A DNA stretch of 48,506 nt, taken from positions 1 to 48,506 of the forward strand of contig JACPJS010000010.1 in NCBI GenBank assembly GCA_016187405.1, in the 5' to 3' direction. This stretch comes from Candidatus Aenigmatarchaeota archaeon. Its GTDB lineage: Archaea > Aenigmatarchaeota > Aenigmatarchaeia > CG10238-14 > SCSR01. Each line of letters opens with the position of its first letter. Within the stretch, counting starts at the first letter, position 1. The notes under the pieces were generated by a model that did not search any database, had not been told where the DNA came from, and worked only from the letters and a program-made list of their open reading frames with translations. Made by a program: the position numbers and the translations under genes. This document shows, one piece after another, positions 43,187 through 48,455 of this stretch.

Positions 43187-43220
43187 GGCCTTATTGACCA
43201 ACCTGTTCCTATGAATAGTG
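43187..43220 (-). repeat. 5' half of the 23S rRNA processing stem
   Basis: It is the partner of 40004-40037 (see that feature). Confidence 0.85.
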
Positions 43221-43543
43221 TCATCTTTGTGGTTTCATTTGACAGTTCGCTCTTCATATCAGCATCAGATACTAAACTTCAATCACTAACCTTCACTCTT
43301 CAATCCATATACGCATATGGATCTGCATAAACATAGATGCCTCATGCGAAATTTTTAGAATCACAGAGAAGCACGTGTAATTAAACACTCCTATGAAGCG
43401 GTTTAGGCAAACATAGTATCACAATTTTTGTATTAACTTTATTGACACCAAACGTTTAAATAGATTTCGAGATTTCGGGCGTTGCCTAAGAAGTGATTCT
43501 TGCACAAAAAGTTCTTTAATTGATTTGAGATAAATTATTATTA

Positions 43544-44206
43544 ATGCCATACAAACTTTCGCCTTCTTCATTGTCTTTATTGAAAGAATGTCCGAGATGT
43601 TTCTGGCTCCAATTTAACAAAAAGATACATAGACCTAACGGTGTATTTCCATCTCTCCCGTCAGGTATGGACAGAATATTCAAGACACATTTTGATTCCT
43701 TCCGTGACAAAGGATTGTTACCGCCTGAACTTGAAAAACTGGATGGCAGTACGAAATTATTTGGTGACAAGCAAGTTCTGGATATATGGAGAAACAATCT
43801 CAAAGGCATTCAATGGACTGACGATGAAGGCAACATATTCAGGGGTGCAGTCGATAATATCCTCCAGAAAGGCAAGAAACTCATAGTCCTTGATTACAAA
43901 ACAAGAGGATATGAACTGAAGGAAGACACCCATGAACACTATCAGGACCAGTTGGACATCTACAACCTCCTGTTAAGGAAGAACGGGTATGATACAGAAG
44001 ATTATGCATATCTACTGTTCTATTATCCTAATAAAATTAATGAGAACGGGGATGTGCTGTTTCACAATAAGTTGCTGAAAATGAAGATTTCAATAAAGAA
44101 TGCCGAAAGGATTTTTAAGGAAGCTATTAATATCTTAAAGGGAGATATGCCGGAAATCAATGATGATTGTGTATTTTGTGAATGGATTGAAGTGAACAAT
44201 ATATAA
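43544..44206 (+). CDS. PD-(D/E)XK nuclease, Cas4/RecB-like with Cys cluster
   Basis: Has an N-terminal CPRC. The core is GAVDNIL...LIVLDYKT....QDQLDIYNLL, with a C-terminal CVFC. No CRISPR array or other cas gene is present in the window. Confidence 0.78.
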   Translation: MPYKLSPSSLSLLKECPRCFWLQFNKKIHRPNGVFPSLPSGMDRIFKTHFDSFRDKGLLPPELEKLDGSTKLFGDKQVLDIWRNNLKGIQWTDDEGNIFRGAVDNILQKGKKLIVLDYKTRGYELKEDTHEHYQDQLDIYNLLLRKNGYDTEDYAYLLFYYPNKINENGDVLFHNKLLKMKISIKNAERIFKEAINILKGDMPEINDDCVFCEWIEVNNI

Positions 44207-44268
44207 GAAGTGTATTATGTTAAATGAAGAAAACATTAAAAAAGAAATTAAAACTCAATTCTATCAAT

Positions 44269-46043
44269 TCATGATTGTATCTTAGATTTGAAAAATTCTT
44301 TTGTATCTTTATCCATAAAATAAACATAAACACCTTTATGCGCACGAGACATCAGTACTCTATACACATTTTTCAAATGTTCTGTTAAATTTTTATTTCC
44401 ACGTTTAACAACACTATCTTGAGAATTTTCAGGTTTACTAATCCATTTCTTTTGTTTTTTATCATAAACTAAATCATTACTAAATATTACTCCAATATAA
44501 TCAAATTCGAATCCCTGTGCAGTATAAACTGTTCCAACTTGATCCATTCCACTTTCATTTGTAGCCCATGTCCAAGCCTCTTTTTTATTTTCCCAAGGCA
44601 TTTCAAAATCACCAATCTTAACATCATTCACTAAACTACCGTCAGGTCTCGGTTCACTCCAAGGCCAGCAAAAACCGGCGACTATTCTAGCTGAATTTCC
44701 CTTTTCTTTATTTTTTTGTTCAATAGCCTTCTTTAGTTCATGTGGAGAATCAAATATTTTGAATTCCATTCCAGTAGCTTTTGTTAAAGTTTGAATATCT
44801 GATTCTCTTATATCCAAAATATTTTCCAACCATTGTAAATATGTATCAGAACCAGAACATCTAAATTGTGTCTTCAATTCAAACTCGAAGATGTTTGATT
44901 CAGAAACTTCTAATTTTTTAGCTGCATTTTTAATCAATTCGACATTCCATATTTCGTTAGGTCTTACAATTTGATGTTCATCGTCATTACTAGTCTTCCT
45001 TATTCTATGAGCCTCGTCACAAATTAAAACATTAATTTCATTTTCTTTTAATTTTGTAAAGTTGAAAAAGAATTTGTAGAATTTCTCTGCTCTCTTACCA
45101 ACCAATTTCCTTAATGTTTTTGTAAATGCAGAAGAACCGGTAGCATGGAAAACAGTTTTACCTTTTCTCATTAATTCTCCCATTACTTCCAATGCTATGA
45201 CAGACTTTCCTGTACCTAGACCACCTTTAACAATAATAACAGATTTTTCATGTTGTTTCGATTGTCTGTTAGCTCTATACATTATAGCATTATAAGCTGC
45301 AATTTGATCGTCTATTAAATTGAAAACTTGTTGTTTGTTTATCATATCTCCAACGTGATCCAATAATTTTTTGGATGGCCTTATAGGACTGTTAACGAAT
45401 CTATTGAAAACTTGAAATCCAGAATCTTTAGAAAGTTTGTCTTTTAGAAATTCACCAAGTTTCTTTACATCTTGTTTTGAAAATAATGGATATTTTTTTA
45501 TTGCATTTTGAAACTTTTGAGCATACAAAACTGAATTTTCTGTTCTGGTATAATTATGACAGTAAACACAACCCACCACAATTCTATTTTAGGCGTATCT
45601 TGAAAAACTTTAATAAAGTCATTCATGTCTATAACATAAGCTTCAACTTGAAAACATGGATGTTCAGATTGACTAATATGATTTCCATAGTCAATTTCTA
45701 AATTTCCTTCTATTTCGGTGTCTTTCACACTGTTGTTAGACCATTGTTTTAATTCTATTATGACTATAGTGTCTTTGTTATCAATTGATTTTCCAAATAA
45801 TACAATATCAATTCTTCTTTCAGAGTACGGTAATTTGTATTCTATAACTATTTTATTGTTGATTAATTCTGGAGTGTCTAAAGAATCTTTCAGAACTCTA
45901 AGCGACGATTCACATGAACGATATTCGGACTCATTTACTTTACGTTGAATTTTTTCTAAATAGTTTTTCGCTACGATATCAGCAATTTCATTGTTTAGAA
46001 CGTCCCTTTTGAATTCACCAACAGTTCCTTCATATAATCGCAT
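44269..46043 (-). pseudogene. DUF2075-type nuclease-helicase (Schlafen-helicase-like), split by a -1 frameshift
   Basis: ORF 45498..46043 encodes the N-terminal nuclease-like domain (RIDIVLFG...IVIIELKQW). ORF 44269..45579 encodes the P-loop helicase part (GGLGTGKS, LICDEAHRI). The two overlap by 82 nt. The frames join at CCT AAA A|AT (nt 45585-45593). Confidence 0.8.
45585..45593 (-). other. Frameshift site in an A4 run
   Basis: Frame 1 reads CCT AAA ATA GAA. The downstream frame is open only from AAT AGA ATT GTG, after a TAA. One extra A would fuse both parts into a protein of about 590 aa. Confidence 0.7.
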
Positions 46044-46044
46044 T

Positions 46045-46404
46045 TTACAGCTCCGTATACTTATTGTTTGATCCTTTGGATTTTTCTACTGGATATCTAG
46101 ATTCATTCTTCTTTAATTTGTTTTTTAATTCAGTACTCAAGTCAATATCGTATTTTTGAGCTAAACGTAAAACAAAATATAAAACATCAGCAAGTTCTTC
46201 AGAAATTTCATTCTTTTTATCGGTTTTGAACATTTCTTCAACTTCTTTCTCTGATTTGAATCTGAAGTGTTCTAAAAGTTCAGAAGATTCCGTTATAATT
46301 CCAATAGCCAAATCTTTTGCATTATGATACTGATCCCAGTCACGATCCCCACAGAAATTTTTTACAGCATCCTTTAGTTCTTTAATAGTAGTTTCAGAGT
46401 CCAT
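46045..46404 (-). CDS. MazG-like all-alpha NTP pyrophosphohydrolase (DCTPP1/RS21-C6-like)
   Basis: Contains DRDWDQYHNAKDLAIGIITESSELLEHFRF....EELADVLYFVLRLA. Its stop lies 1 nt before the DUF2075 start. Confidence 0.85.
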   Translation of the reverse strand: MDSETTIKELKDAVKNFCGDRDWDQYHNAKDLAIGIITESSELLEHFRFKSEKEVEEMFKTDKKNEISEELADVLYFVLRLAQKYDIDLSTELKNKLKKNESRYPVEKSKGSNNKYTEL

Positions 46405-46571
46405 AAAATTAACTTATCGTAAAGAGTTAAATCTACATTTATCACAAAACGGACAACTTAACACCTCATATTGACCAGCCATATTAAACAATTATTATAT
46501 ACTATATTTTTATTCTTCCACTTCTTAGGCAAAGCCGCGATTTGGAGCCTTGTTGAACGGGATAGATATTT

Positions 46572-47787: not shown

Positions 47788-47880
47788 GTTTACATACAAG
47801 TTTTACCAATCGATGATGCGATAGAATTCCAGAAAGAGGATTTGGATTTTGATAAACTTGGTTTAAAACGATATTTATAA

Positions 47881-47953
47881 TGGACTGAACGGGATTCGAA
47901 CCCGTGGCCTCATGCTTGCAAAGCACGCGATCTACCAACTGATCTATCAGCCC
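47881..47953 (-). tRNA. tRNA-Ala (anticodon UGC)
   Basis: The minus strand reads GGGCTGATAGATCAGTTGGTAGATCGCGTGCTTTGCAAGCATGAGGCCACGGGTTCGAATCCCGTTCAGTCCA. It has a G3:U70 pair, the loop TTTGCAA and discriminator A. Confidence 0.92.
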
Positions 47954-47997
47954 GAGATATATAGATTGTTCTAACTTGGATTTAAATTTATGAAAGA

Positions 47998-48342
47998 TTA
48001 TGGAGGCAGTTCTCTTAGAATATCGTAAAATATCTGAAGTAATGTACTTGATGATGGATCTGCGCGAGTAGGGCCATGATGATAATAATCACACATTGTG
48101 GTATCTATTAAGGTTCCTGGTGGACGGTCATGTAAATCGTAGCGAGTCCAGCATTTATGATAAGGTATACCTGTATCACCTTCCCAGTATAAGCTTCCTT
48201 CGTATCCAACGCCTACATGTGCACCAAAATTCTCTCTAGATACAGGACCTAATCTGGTTGTCAATTCTCTTTCAATTCTATCCTTAACAAACGAAGGTGA
48301 AACTGTGAGTGTAGACGATGTTATTCCGTATACTCCTGACAT
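47998..48342 (-). CDS. Hypothetical protein (Arg-rich ORFan class) inside the 16S-tRNA-Ala spacer
   Basis: 114-aa ORF with an ATG start and R:K of 8:2. Its own AAAGCTTAAAT box lies 23 nt upstream. No recognisable motif. Confidence 0.5.
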   Translation of the reverse strand: MSGVYGITSSTLTVSPSFVKDRIERELTTRLGPVSRENFGAHVGVGYEGSLYWEGDTGIPYHKCWTRYDLHDRPPGTLIDTTMCDYYHHGPTRADPSSSTLLQIFYDILRELPP

Positions 48343-48365
48343 AAAACAAGGAAGGAAATTAAAGA

Positions 48366-48376
48366 ATTTAAGCTTT
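48366..48376 (-). promoter_or_regulatory. BRE/TATA-like box AAAGCTTAAAT, 23 nt upstream of ATG 48342
   Basis: It is identical to the 11-mer at 4824-4834. It could instead or additionally drive tRNA-Ala. Confidence 0.45.
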
Positions 48377-48455
48377 TGAAAAATTCTGCTACAGGTAAGG
48401 CTTCTTAATTTGATGCCTAGAGGGATAGACTACGCTTTGCAACACTTGGATCTTT

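What the first reader, a model, noticed from the sequence alone, without database searches (positions are those of the whole stretch)
43187..48455. 16S and 23S rRNA genes uncoupled by a 5.2-kb protein-coding island; 23S has its own processing stem
Both rRNAs are on the minus strand and tRNA-Ala(UGC) still follows the 16S, as in a classical archaeal operon. Between tRNA-Ala and the 23S, however, lie six genes on both strands: an ORFan, two MazG-like genes, a DUF2075 nuclease-helicase and a Cas4-like nuclease. One further ORF lies between the 16S and tRNA-Ala. The 23S is bracketed by a perfect 20-bp stem (40004-40023 / 43201-43220) plus a second helix, as expected for BHB excision from an independent precursor. 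The former spacer has therefore become an integration hot-spot for accessory, defence-type genes.
Basis: partly seen in the sequence, partly recalled or inferred. Interest (0 to 1): 0.6.

Follow-up and report, generated by a model that had tools for sequence, protein, structure and literature searches.

The report
Gene-filled, decoupled archaeal rRNA gene cluster
In this tiny groundwater archaeon the 16S, tRNA-Ala and 23S genes keep their ancestral order but lie 5.3 kb apart as separate transcription units with swappable protein genes between them, which is the normal, already described "unlinked rRNA" state of its lineage.

Summary
The 23S gene (40034-43190, minus), tRNA-Ala(UGC) and the listed ORFs are real. 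The window holds only the last 53 nt of the 16S, because the contig ends there. The 5' 900 nt lie on another contig, whose upstream flank pairs over 37 bp with the window's 16S downstream flank. The "six genes" are five: the nuclease-helicase is split by a 2-nt frameshift that Logan contigs of three runs lack.

The 23S stem is real, covaries in relatives and carries a BHB-like motif. That is normal for linked operons too, so it does not show independence. Better evidence does. A roughly 270-nt 23S leader is conserved family-wide, and its 5' edge is a BRE/TATA element. tRNA-Ala has its own TATA box, and oligo-T tracts follow both rRNA stems.

Eighteen of 19 relatives have 2-9.5 kb gene-filled spacers with differing cargo, mostly ordinary genes. 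No integrase or att repeat was found. Only one low-GC module here (MazG-like, NERD-DUF2075, Cas4-like) looks defence-like and horizontally acquired.

Unlinked rRNA genes in DPANN archaea are published, and this scan already reported the same layout in another Aenigmatarchaeota genome. This is a new member of a known kind, of low to moderate interest.

The parts
48454..48506 (-). 3'-terminal 53 nt of the 16S rRNA gene, cut by the contig end; the rest is on contig C14 plus an unassembled gap
   Evidence: Rfam SSU model positions 1477-1533, E=2.5e-8, truncated at the 5' side; C14:6311-7250 holds the 5' ~900 nt
48388..48430 (-). 3' strand of the 16S processing stem, with a BHB-like element (3' bulge AAU at 48408-48410)
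   Evidence: Cofold with C14:6258-6301 gives 14 + 8 + 15 bp
48379..48383 (-). T5 tract directly after the 16S stem; putative archaeal terminator (inferred)
   Evidence: Sequence; T5-T7 at the equivalent place in 7 well-anchored relatives
47998..48342 (-). 114-aa ORFan between the 16S and tRNA-Ala; coding status unproven
   Evidence: No Pfam, NCBIfam or PADLOC hit; only itself found among 5.8 billion proteins
47980..47992 (-). BRE/TATA-like element (CATAAATTTAAAT) ending 27 nt upstream of tRNA-Ala
   Evidence: Sequence; a TATA-like box at about -30 upstream of tRNA-Ala in nearly all relatives
47881..47953 (-). tRNA-Ala(UGC)
   Evidence: ARAGORN and Rfam, 70.9 bits; kept in 16 of 19 relatives' spacers
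47065..47787 (+). 240-aa ORFan, antisense to the rRNAs
   Evidence: No family hit; only itself found among 5.8 billion proteins; the ORF is far too long to be chance in 38% GC DNA (my estimate)
46572..46925 (+). MazG-family NTP pyrophosphohydrolase, antisense to the rRNAs; an older resident of the spacer
   Evidence: PF03819, 2.3e-10; a 77% identical homologue sits in the G002 spacer, also antisense and next to tRNA-Ala
46519..46536 (.). Right arm of an 18-nt inverted repeat (17 of 18) that brackets the three-gene module; unexplained
   Evidence: these are the only two copies in the genome
46045..46404 (-). MazG-like gene, first gene of the low-GC operon; its stop lies 1 nt before the next ATG
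   Evidence: PF12643, 1.3e-15; directly upstream of the nuclease-helicase in 14 of 14 homologous loci
44269..46043 (-). NERD-like nuclease plus DUF2075 (Schlafen group 3) helicase: one gene split here by a 2-nt insertion at about 45577-45578
   Evidence: PDC-S41 profile positions 7-96 and 442-622; 2 nt absent in contigs of 3 runs; homologues are 623-663 aa; 590-aa open frame without the 2 nt
43544..44206 (+). Cas4-like PD-(D/E)XK nuclease, below the cut-off for true Cas4
   Evidence: PF12705, 3.6e-12; PADLOC Cas4, 1e-9; TIGR00372 scores 25.8 against a cut-off of 65; a homologue sits beside the same operon in G077, L035, L042 and L044
43478..43495 (.). Left arm of the 18-nt inverted repeat, between the 23S promoter and the Cas4-like gene
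43454..43469 (-). BRE/TATA element of the 23S gene (CGAAATCTATTTAAAC); a transcription start is expected near 43430 (inferred)
   Evidence: It aligns with AAAAACTATATAAAG and similar elements in congeners and other genera, at the exact 5' edge of conservation
43221..43453 (-). Conserved 23S leader (5' external transcribed spacer) with a covarying hairpin and C/D-box-like blocks
43191..43220 (-). 5' strand of the 23S processing stem (43199-43220), then G43198, central-helix strand UCAA (43194-43197) and bulge UAA (43191-43193)
40034..43190 (-). 23S rRNA gene, complete
   Evidence: RF02540 positions 1-2987, 2408 bits
40004..40033 (-). Central-helix strand UUGA (40030-40033), bulge UAA (40027-40029), A40026 and the 3' strand of the 23S processing stem (40004-40025)
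39985..39990 (-). T6 tract just after the 23S stem; putative terminator, so 5S is not co-transcribed
   Evidence: Sequence; T-runs at the same place in relatives; 5S lies on contig C3

Best explanation
This is the normal rRNA gene layout of a family of Aenigmatarchaeota (DPANN archaea). The ancestral 16S - tRNA-Ala - 23S order and orientation are kept, but the operon has dissolved into separate transcription units.

The proposed units are as follows.
- The 16S is transcribed from a promoter on contig C14. It is folded into its own processing stem and probably terminated at a T5 tract.
- tRNA-Ala has its own TATA box.
- The 23S has its own BRE/TATA about 270 nt upstream and a conserved structured leader.
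- A 22-bp processing stem with a bulge-helix-bulge-like element brackets the 23S. The splicing endonuclease EndA would cut there, releasing a pre-23S predicted to join 40028 to 43191 if it is circularised. A T6 terminator follows. 5S lies elsewhere.

Because each unit is self-sufficient, the DNA between them tolerates gene gain and loss, and its content differs from species to species. In this genome it holds two ORFans, an older MazG gene shared with one congener, and a recently acquired low-GC module. That module is a MazG-like plus NERD-DUF2075 nuclease-helicase operon, frameshifted in this assembly, with a Cas4-like nuclease beside it.

Shown: the gene positions, the stems, conservation of the leader, promoter and stems, variability of the cargo, and the patchy distribution of the module. 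Inferred: the promoters, the terminators, EndA cleavage and independent transcription. No RNA data exist.
For: Layout.

Assembly:
- Logan contigs of four groundwater runs (one study) tile 43198-48472. Single pieces span Cas4-like to helicase, helicase to NERD, MazG-like to tRNA-Ala, and ORFan to tRNA to the 16S 3' end.
- There are 37 bp of complementarity between the C14 and window 16S flanks.

Lineage-wide pattern:
- 19 relatives have 16S and 23S on one contig and one strand. Their spacers are 2.1-3.9 kb in the genus and 1.2-9.5 kb in the family and a sister family, and 18 of 19 exceed 1.5 kb.
- tRNA-Ala is kept in 16 of 19 spacers.
- Every spacer holds at least one ORF of 70 aa or more; the only one in G027 overlaps tRNA-Ala.

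Own 23S promoter: the leader is conserved in the genus and family, its 5' boundary is a BRE/TATA in the same alignment column, and there is no conservation upstream. In L014, L016 and L017 tRNA-Ala sits directly upstream of that promoter.

Other signals:
- A tRNA-Ala TATA box lies at about -30 in nearly all relatives.
- Oligo-T follows the 16S stem and the 23S stem.
- A 17-25-bp 23S stem is predicted in 15 of 17 relatives. Compensatory changes occur at most positions, and UCAA/UUGA plus the UAA bulge are conserved. The sister family shows a canonical 3-4-3 BHB.
- EndA is present in 10 of 10 other genus members.

Cargo flux: content is shared only between congeners, while 12 kb downstream of the 23S is syntenic with G007, G008 and G009.

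Module acquired by horizontal transfer:
- Its GC is 0.304, lower than 99.5% of 2-kb windows of the genome.
- Homologues occur in 18 of 300 other genomes of the phylum and in 0 of 9 congeners.
- The same operon, at 58-68% identity, occurs in MAGs labelled Nano-, Micr- and Woesearchaeota.

Literature: unlinked rRNA genes are defined by a spacer over 1500 bp (bioRxiv 10.1101/705046). They are reported as prevalent in DPANN, with Aenigmarchaeota showing both states (PMC8997704).
Against: There are no transcript data: no RNA run holds this stretch. Promoters, terminators and EndA cleavage are therefore sequence inferences. TATA-like words are common in 38% GC DNA, so only their positional conservation counts.

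EndA was not found in this genome itself, which is 73% complete.

The BHB here is relaxed. A G-A mismatch closes the outer helix, and the minimum-free-energy fold prefers a 5x5 internal loop.

No listed Logan contig bridges 43198-43209 with 31 nt on both sides. The 23S body could therefore be a consensus of co-occurring congeners, although the leader homology fixes the layout.

All four runs come from one study and may include the source sample of this genome.

Read-through from the 16S promoter cannot be excluded. In G008 all spacer genes point the same way as the rRNAs.
Confidence: 0.8

Rival explanations
1. This is a classical operon with an expanded spacer. One long precursor runs from the 16S promoter through the cargo to the 23S, and the internal TATA elements are secondary or chance matches.
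For: Gene order and strand are those of a classical 16S-tRNA-Ala-23S operon. Both rRNAs keep processing stems, as co-transcribed rRNAs do. In G008 all spacer genes are co-oriented with the rRNAs. Internal promoters and read-through are not mutually exclusive.
Against: Three genes here are antisense to the rRNAs. T5-T7 tracts follow the 16S stem in this genome and in relatives. The BRE/TATA sits exactly at the edge of family-wide conservation. Cargo of up to 9.5 kb, including large membrane-protein genes, sits in relatives' spacers.
Confidence: 0.1
2. The spacer is a site-specific integration hot-spot. A mobile element carrying defence genes integrated at tRNA-Ala or at a defined att site.
For: The MazG-like, NERD-DUF2075 and Cas4-like block is a low-GC compositional outlier. 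It is patchy across DPANN. An 18-nt inverted repeat unique in the genome brackets it. Its nuclease-helicase hits the candidate defence profile PDC-S41, with weak AbiO and Nhi hits.
Against: No integrase, transposase or recombinase domain was found in the spacer. No repeat of any 16-mer of tRNA-Ala was found. In other genomes the module was not placed in the rRNA spacer: in G077 it is on a different contig from the 16S. The inverted-repeat motif is absent from the other module loci. Cargo in relatives is mostly housekeeping-type. Gene flux is also seen at other junctions of this contig.
Confidence: 0.12
3. This is an assembly artefact: the contig wrongly joins a 16S-bearing and a 23S-bearing fragment, or fragments of different organisms.
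For: The contig ends inside the 16S, which is typical of rRNA assembly breaks. The sample holds at least one congener, seen as a variant leader at a loose end at 43227. No listed piece bridges 43198-43209 with 31 nt on each side.
Against: Per-run contigs of four runs tile the whole spacer at similar depth to the flank. The 16S flanks on two contigs are complementary over 37 bp. The leader at 43221-43469 is homologous to the 23S leaders of 14 or more relatives, so it must precede a 23S. The same collinear layout occurs on contigs of up to 802 kb in relatives.
Confidence: 0.03

Closest known systems
Unlinked rRNA genes of Bacteria and Archaea (Brewer et al., bioRxiv 10.1101/705046; ISME J 2020), and their prevalence in DPANN and Asgard archaea (Juttner and Ferreira-Cerca 2022, PMC8997704)
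   Same: The 16S-23S distance of 5.26 kb exceeds the 1500-bp criterion. Protein genes lie between the two rRNA genes. The organism is a small-genome, probably symbiotic DPANN archaeon. PMC8997704 already records both linked and unlinked states within Aenigmarchaeota, which matches the 1.2-9.5 kb range found here.
   Different: Most unlinked pairs in complete genomes are over 6 kb apart and scattered (mean about 410 kb in the Brewer data). Here order, strand and the intervening tRNA-Ala are retained, so this is a short-range, collinear form. I did not find the conserved internal BRE/TATA plus leader or the species-level cargo turnover described in the passages I read. I did not read the supplements.
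Classical euryarchaeal-type rRNA operon (16S - tRNA-Ala - 23S - 5S) processed at BHB motifs by EndA, with circular intermediates (background in PMC12918454 and PMC8339473)
   Same: The gene order and strand are the same. tRNA-Ala(UGC) sits in the spacer. Separate processing stems with bulge-helix-bulge-like elements surround the 16S and the 23S.
   Different: The spacer is 5.3 kb and holds five to six protein genes, three of them antisense. Each unit has an apparent promoter and an oligo-T tract. 5S is on another contig. The BHB is relaxed, with an extra G-A opposition.
Nhi / PDC-S41-type nuclease-helicase defence proteins (PADLOC-DB), and DUF2075 (Schlafen group 3 helicase) proteins
   Same: The split gene at 44269-46043 has an N-terminal NERD-like nuclease region and a C-terminal DUF2075 helicase (Pfam 1e-76). 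It matches both ends of the PDC-S41 profile. Its distribution is patchy and indicates horizontal transfer.
   Different: The PADLOC scores are modest (1.5e-13 and 1e-6), and the hits to AbiO and Nhi are weak. The gene is invariably preceded by a MazG-like gene and often accompanied by a Cas4-like nuclease. I did not find that architecture described. No defence activity has been tested, and the copy in this assembly is frameshifted.
Earlier report of this scan on another Aenigmatarchaeota genome (e1-3528715)
   Same: The 16S, tRNA-Ala and 23S genes are collinear and 3.5 kb apart, with about six protein genes between them and apparently separate promoters. That report read it as an intermediate form of unlinked rRNA genes.
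   Different: It concerns a different genome with different cargo. The present report adds the family-wide leader and promoter alignment, the stem covariation and the analysis of the module.

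Membership tests
Unlinked rRNA genes (Brewer criterion) | Distance between the closest edges of 16S and 23S greater than 1500 bp | tested here: met
   16S 3' end at about 48454-48456 and 23S 5' end at 43190 give about 5.26 kb
Unlinked rRNA genes (Brewer criterion) | 16S and 23S are transcribed separately | not testable with these tools
   No RNA run holds the stretch. Sequence evidence favours it: a conserved BRE/TATA at the edge of the leader, oligo-T after the 16S stem and antisense genes
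Classical archaeal rRNA operon 16S-tRNA-Ala-23S-5S | Order 16S, tRNA-Ala, 23S on one strand | tested here: met
Classical archaeal rRNA operon 16S-tRNA-Ala-23S-5S | Short, gene-free transcribed spacer | tested here: not met
   The spacer is 5.26 kb with five genes plus one ORF, three of them antisense
Classical archaeal rRNA operon 16S-tRNA-Ala-23S-5S | 5S linked downstream of the 23S | tested here: not met
   The only 5S is on contig C3:16162-16280. A T6 tract directly follows the 23S stem
Bulge-helix-bulge (hBHBh') EndA substrate | Two 3-nt bulges on opposite strands separated by a 4-bp helix and flanked by helices | tested here: inconclusive
   23S: UCAA/UUGA with UAA bulges, between the 22-bp stem and 23S helix 1. 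A G-A opposition is also present, and the minimum-free-energy fold draws a 5x5 loop instead. The elements are conserved in the family, and the sister family shows a canonical 3-4-3 form. 16S: a 5-bp helix with 3- and 4-nt bulges
Bulge-helix-bulge (hBHBh') EndA substrate | Splicing endonuclease EndA encoded by the organism | tested here: inconclusive
   PF01974 was not found in this 73%-complete genome. It is present in 10 of 10 other members of the genus
tRNA-targeting integrative element or genomic island | Integrase or recombinase gene | tested here: not met
   No such domain in any spacer ORF
tRNA-targeting integrative element or genomic island | Direct repeat derived from the tRNA 3' part at the far end (att sites) | tested here: not met
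   No 16-mer of tRNA-Ala recurs with 2 or fewer mismatches in 43191-47880
CRISPR-associated Cas4 | Score above the curated cut-off of the Cas4 equivalog model | tested here: not met
   TIGR00372 scores 25.8 bits against a cut-off of 65. Only the general PD-(D/E)XK family passes. The CRISPR/cas context was not examined
PDC-S41 / Nhi-like nuclease-helicase defence gene | Profile match across the nuclease and helicase parts | tested here: met
   PDC-S41 positions 7-96 (1e-6) and 442-622 (1.5e-13). Nhi 7e-6 and AbiO 3e-8 are weak
PDC-S41 / Nhi-like nuclease-helicase defence gene | Intact reading frame | tested here: not met
   The frame is split at about 45577 in the window. It is intact in the contigs of three runs and in homologues
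PDC-S41 / Nhi-like nuclease-helicase defence gene | Protects against viruses | not testable with these tools
   No host or virus system is available

The most novel reading that the evidence does not exclude
Two readings go beyond what is known, and my evidence does not exclude either.

(1) In this archaeal family the dissolved rRNA operon is framed by strong promoters and oligo-T terminators. It may act as an insulated, permissive landing pad where newly acquired genes are tried out. That would make it a predictable place to find new DPANN accessory genes.

(2) The strictly conserved MazG-like and NERD-DUF2075 operon, often with a Cas4-like nuclease, may be an undescribed mobile antiviral system that spreads across DPANN phyla.
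Probability: 0.3. Interest if true: 0.5.

Novelty: new member of a known kind. Interest (0 to 1): 0.3.

Why it matters
This is a clean, well-documented example of how an rRNA operon comes apart. Order, orientation, tRNA-Ala and both processing stems survive, each unit acquires or keeps its own promoter and terminator, and the gaps then fill with changing genes.

It has practical consequences. 16S-ITS-23S amplicon or operon-based typing will fail or mislead for this lineage. Automatic annotation should not call a 5-kb "ITS" here.

It gives concrete coordinates for testing archaeal rRNA promoters, BHB cleavage and 23S circularisation in DPANN archaea. The layout itself is already published and was already seen in this scan. 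The conserved MazG-like plus nuclease-helicase operon is the more promising lead.

Tried and rejected
- No RNA holder listed: the run search returned only DNA-type groundwater metagenomes, four from one study plus one small share. Expression, transcription starts and circular junctions could not be examined.
- The depth of Logan contigs is lower over 44110-46460 than over the flanks in two runs. I do not use this as evidence for a strain lacking the module, because depth is one figure per contig and no joint across the module was listed.
- The sigma-70 promoter and intrinsic-terminator scanner was not used, because it does not model archaeal signals.
- Rfam at a permissive threshold gave only chance-level hits in the spacer: snoR13 (E=4.3), sR24 (E=8.9) and plastid UTR families.
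- A search for the 18-nt inverted-repeat motif in relatives' spacers and in four other module loci found nothing. Its meaning stays open.
- My first ORF clustering of spacers missed the MazG homologue in the G002 spacer, because a longer overlapping ORF masked it. tBLASTn found it later.
- The G006, G007 and G008 coordinates for the 23S ends were displaced, probably by rRNA introns. G006 aligned poorly, and G007 and G008 gave no stem. Three rows were mis-anchored by my regular expression. The pair counts should be read from the ten correctly anchored rows, which show 11-12 of 12 canonical pairs.
- The two ORFans were searched against 5.8 billion proteins, and only themselves were found. No structure prediction was attempted.

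Full report
**What is in the sequence**

The window is a whole 48,506-bp contig (C16) of a 440-kb, 16-contig, 73%-complete genome.
- Rfam finds a complete archaeal 23S at 40034-43190 on the minus strand, and a tRNA at 47881-47953. ARAGORN reads the tRNA as tRNA-Ala(UGC).
- No 16S reaches the gathering threshold. At a permissive threshold only the last 53 nt of an SSU rRNA appear, at 48454-48506, cut by the contig end.
- The first ~900 nt of the 16S are on contig C14 (6311-7250), which also ends inside the gene. About 550 nt are unassembled.
- 5S is on a third contig.

**Do the pieces belong together?**

- The 5' flank of the 16S on C14 (6258-6301) pairs with the 3' flank in the window (48388-48430). 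The helices are 14, 8 and 15 bp, interrupted by bulges in bulge-helix-bulge geometry. Two contigs that form one processing stem belong to one gene.
- Logan contigs of four groundwater metagenome runs (one study) tile 43198-48472. Single pieces cross every gene junction, including ORFan to tRNA-Ala to ORF114 to the 16S 3' end (47153-48472).
- No listed piece bridges 43198-43209 by 31 nt on each side, and a congener is present in the sample. The body of the 23S might therefore be a mixed consensus.
- The 250 nt upstream of the stem are homologous to the 23S leaders of many relatives, so the layout is not in doubt. I put misassembly at about 3%.

**The genes between**

There is also a 240-aa ORFan (+) and a 114-aa ORFan (-) between the 16S and tRNA-Ala. 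The two ORFans have no relative among 5.8 billion proteins.

The 181-aa ORF (weak NERD hit) and the 436-aa helicase ORF overlap by 82 nt in different frames. They are one gene, for four reasons:
- They hit the two ends of one PADLOC profile, PDC-S41.
- Homologues in other genomes are single 623-663-aa frames.
- Contigs of three runs lack 2 nt at 45577, in a TGTGG slip site.
- Deleting those 2 nt gives an open 590-aa frame.

The Cas4-like protein falls far below the Cas4 equivalog cut-off.

**The 23S stem**

- 43201-43220 and 40004-40023 are perfectly complementary. With two G-U pairs the stem is 22 bp.
- Between it and 23S helix 1 lie UCAA/UUGA (4 bp), flanked by UAA on the 5' strand (inner side) and UAA on the 3' strand (outer side). 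This is the handedness of a BHB, with an extra G-A opposition.
- The minimum-free-energy fold draws this region as a 5x5 loop instead, so the motif is a relaxed candidate.
- In 15 of 17 relatives a 17-25-bp stem is predicted at the same place, with different sequences. The ten correctly anchored rows show 11-12 of 12 canonical pairs, and the pooled column counts show both-sided changes at every position. UCAA/UUGA and the 3' UAA are conserved. Two genomes of a sister family show a textbook 3-4-3 BHB.
- EndA was not found in this incomplete genome, but it is in all ten other genus members.
- A stem with a BHB around each rRNA is also the rule in co-transcribed archaeal operons (PMC12918454). 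It therefore does not show an independent precursor.

**Evidence for independent transcription**

- I aligned up to 380 nt upstream of the 23S from the window and 19 relatives. A leader of about 270 nt is conserved across the family. Its 5' boundary is a BRE/TATA element in the same column. Examples are AAAAACTATATAAAG in congeners, CGAAATCTATTTAAAC at 43454-43469 here, and AAAGCTTTAAATAT and GAAATCTTTATAAAT in other genera. Upstream of it nothing aligns.
- In three relatives tRNA-Ala lies directly upstream of this promoter.
- The leader has a covarying hairpin and a covarying GGUU/AACC helix around C/D-box-like blocks.
- tRNA-Ala has a TATA-like box about 30 nt upstream, here and in nearly all relatives.
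- A T5-T7 tract follows the 3' strand of the 16S stem here and in seven well-anchored relatives. T-runs follow the 23S stem.
- Three of the five spacer genes are antisense to the rRNAs.

Together this favours three separate units: 16S, tRNA-Ala and 23S. No RNA data could be found to prove it.

**How unusual is it?**

- In 19 relatives with both genes on one contig and strand, the spacer is 2.1-3.9 kb in the genus and 1.2-9.5 kb in the family and a sister family. Another family has the genes 165 kb apart, and in a further genome of the sister family they lie on opposite strands.
- tRNA-Ala is retained in 16 of 19 spacers.
- The shortest spacer (1.2 kb, G027) has no cargo but still has the promoter-like element.
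- One homologous locus carries the title Candidatus Aenigmatarchaeota.
- PMC8997704 already states that DPANN archaea mostly have unlinked rRNA genes and that Aenigmarchaeota show both states. The Brewer criterion (over 1500 bp; bioRxiv 10.1101/705046) is met.
- This scan reported the same layout in another Aenigmatarchaeota genome (e1-3528715).

**Is it a hot-spot for defence genes?**

- Spacer cargo is shared only between congeners of other genera. It is almost entirely different within this genus.
- By contrast, 12 kb downstream of the 23S is syntenic with three congeners. Turnover in the spacer is therefore high.
- The cargo is mixed. In the genus it includes ASCH, NUDIX, a methyltransferase, a KaiC-like ATPase, DUF2130, LAGLIDADG and UPF0175 proteins. 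In other genera it includes a P-type ATPase, a Cache sensor, H+-pyrophosphatase, a DEAD-box helicase, metal transporters and MinD-like proteins.
- No integrase appeared among the spacer ORFs annotated, and this window's spacer holds no tRNA-derived repeat.
- The MazG gene on the plus strand is shared with G002 at 77% identity, in the same antisense position next to tRNA-Ala. Part of the cargo is therefore old.

**The one clearly acquired block**

- The MazG-like plus NERD-DUF2075 operon has GC 0.304, lower than 99.5% of 2-kb windows of the genome.
- The helicase occurs in 18 of 300 other genomes of the phylum and in none of nine congeners.
- The same two-gene operon, with the genes abutting, is found in 14 of 14 loci from MAGs labelled Nano-, Aenigmat-, Micr- and Woesearchaeota, at 58-68% identity.
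- A Cas4-like gene sits beside it in the window, G077, L035, L042 and L044.
- Here an 18-nt inverted repeat unique in the genome brackets the block (43478-43495 and 46519-46536). I cannot explain the repeat.
- This is a plausible mobile defence module of PDC-S41 / Nhi type. It is not tied to rRNA loci elsewhere.

**Verdict**

The rRNA genes are very probably uncoupled, but for reasons other than the stem. The spacer is a zone of gene turnover rather than a dedicated integration site for defence genes. This is a new member of a known kind.

Noticed in passing
window 44269-46404, plus 43544-44206; loci L025-L047: A strictly conserved two-gene operon occurs in 14 of 14 loci across several DPANN phyla. 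A MazG-like gene abuts a NERD-DUF2075 nuclease-helicase of about 630 aa. A Cas4-like nuclease often sits beside it, in varying orientation. Its distribution is patchy and its GC is low here. It is a candidate mobile defence system (PDC-S41-like).
   Followed up: partly
window 45577-45578: The window has 2 extra nt in a TGTGG run. They split the nuclease-helicase gene into 181-aa and 436-aa ORFs. Logan contigs of three of the four runs lack them. This is either an assembly error or a pseudogenised allele.
   Followed up: yes
window 43478-43495 and 46519-46536: An 18-nt inverted repeat (17 of 18 matches, GC-rich) occurs only at these two places in the genome. Both arms sit in divergent promoter regions and bracket the Cas4-like, nuclease-helicase and MazG-like block. 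It could be a terminal repeat, an operator or a recombination scar. I did not find it in relatives.
   Followed up: partly
window 43240-43300 (minus strand); alignment A2 columns 235-334: The conserved 23S leader carries C/D-box-like blocks (UGAUGA ... CUGA ... GAUGAAGAGCGAACUGUC). A covarying GGUU/AACC helix encloses them, and a covarying hairpin lies upstream. This may be a K-turn or L7Ae platform or an sRNA-like element within the leader. Rfam gives only a chance-level sR24 hit (E=8.9).
   Followed up: partly
window 38776-39945: Two ORFs without homologues (103 aa and 258 aa) sit between the 23S 3' end and the first gene that is syntenic with congeners (38346-38738). In G007 that conserved gene lies about 900 nt from the 23S.
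   Followed up: partly
relatives G006, G007, G008 and others: Many relatives have 16S and 23S matches stretched to 2.3-5.5 kb or broken into pieces. LAGLIDADG ORFs lie at spacer edges, which indicates rRNA introns or homing-endonuclease insertions. The window's own 23S (3157 nt) looks intron-free.
   Followed up: no
contig C14:2764-6061 (upstream of the 16S): The four ORFs nearest the 16S promoter (155, 261, 127 and 367 aa) have no homologue within 10 kb upstream of the 16S in three congeners. Genes further out do. The upstream side of the 16S is therefore also variable.
   Followed up: no
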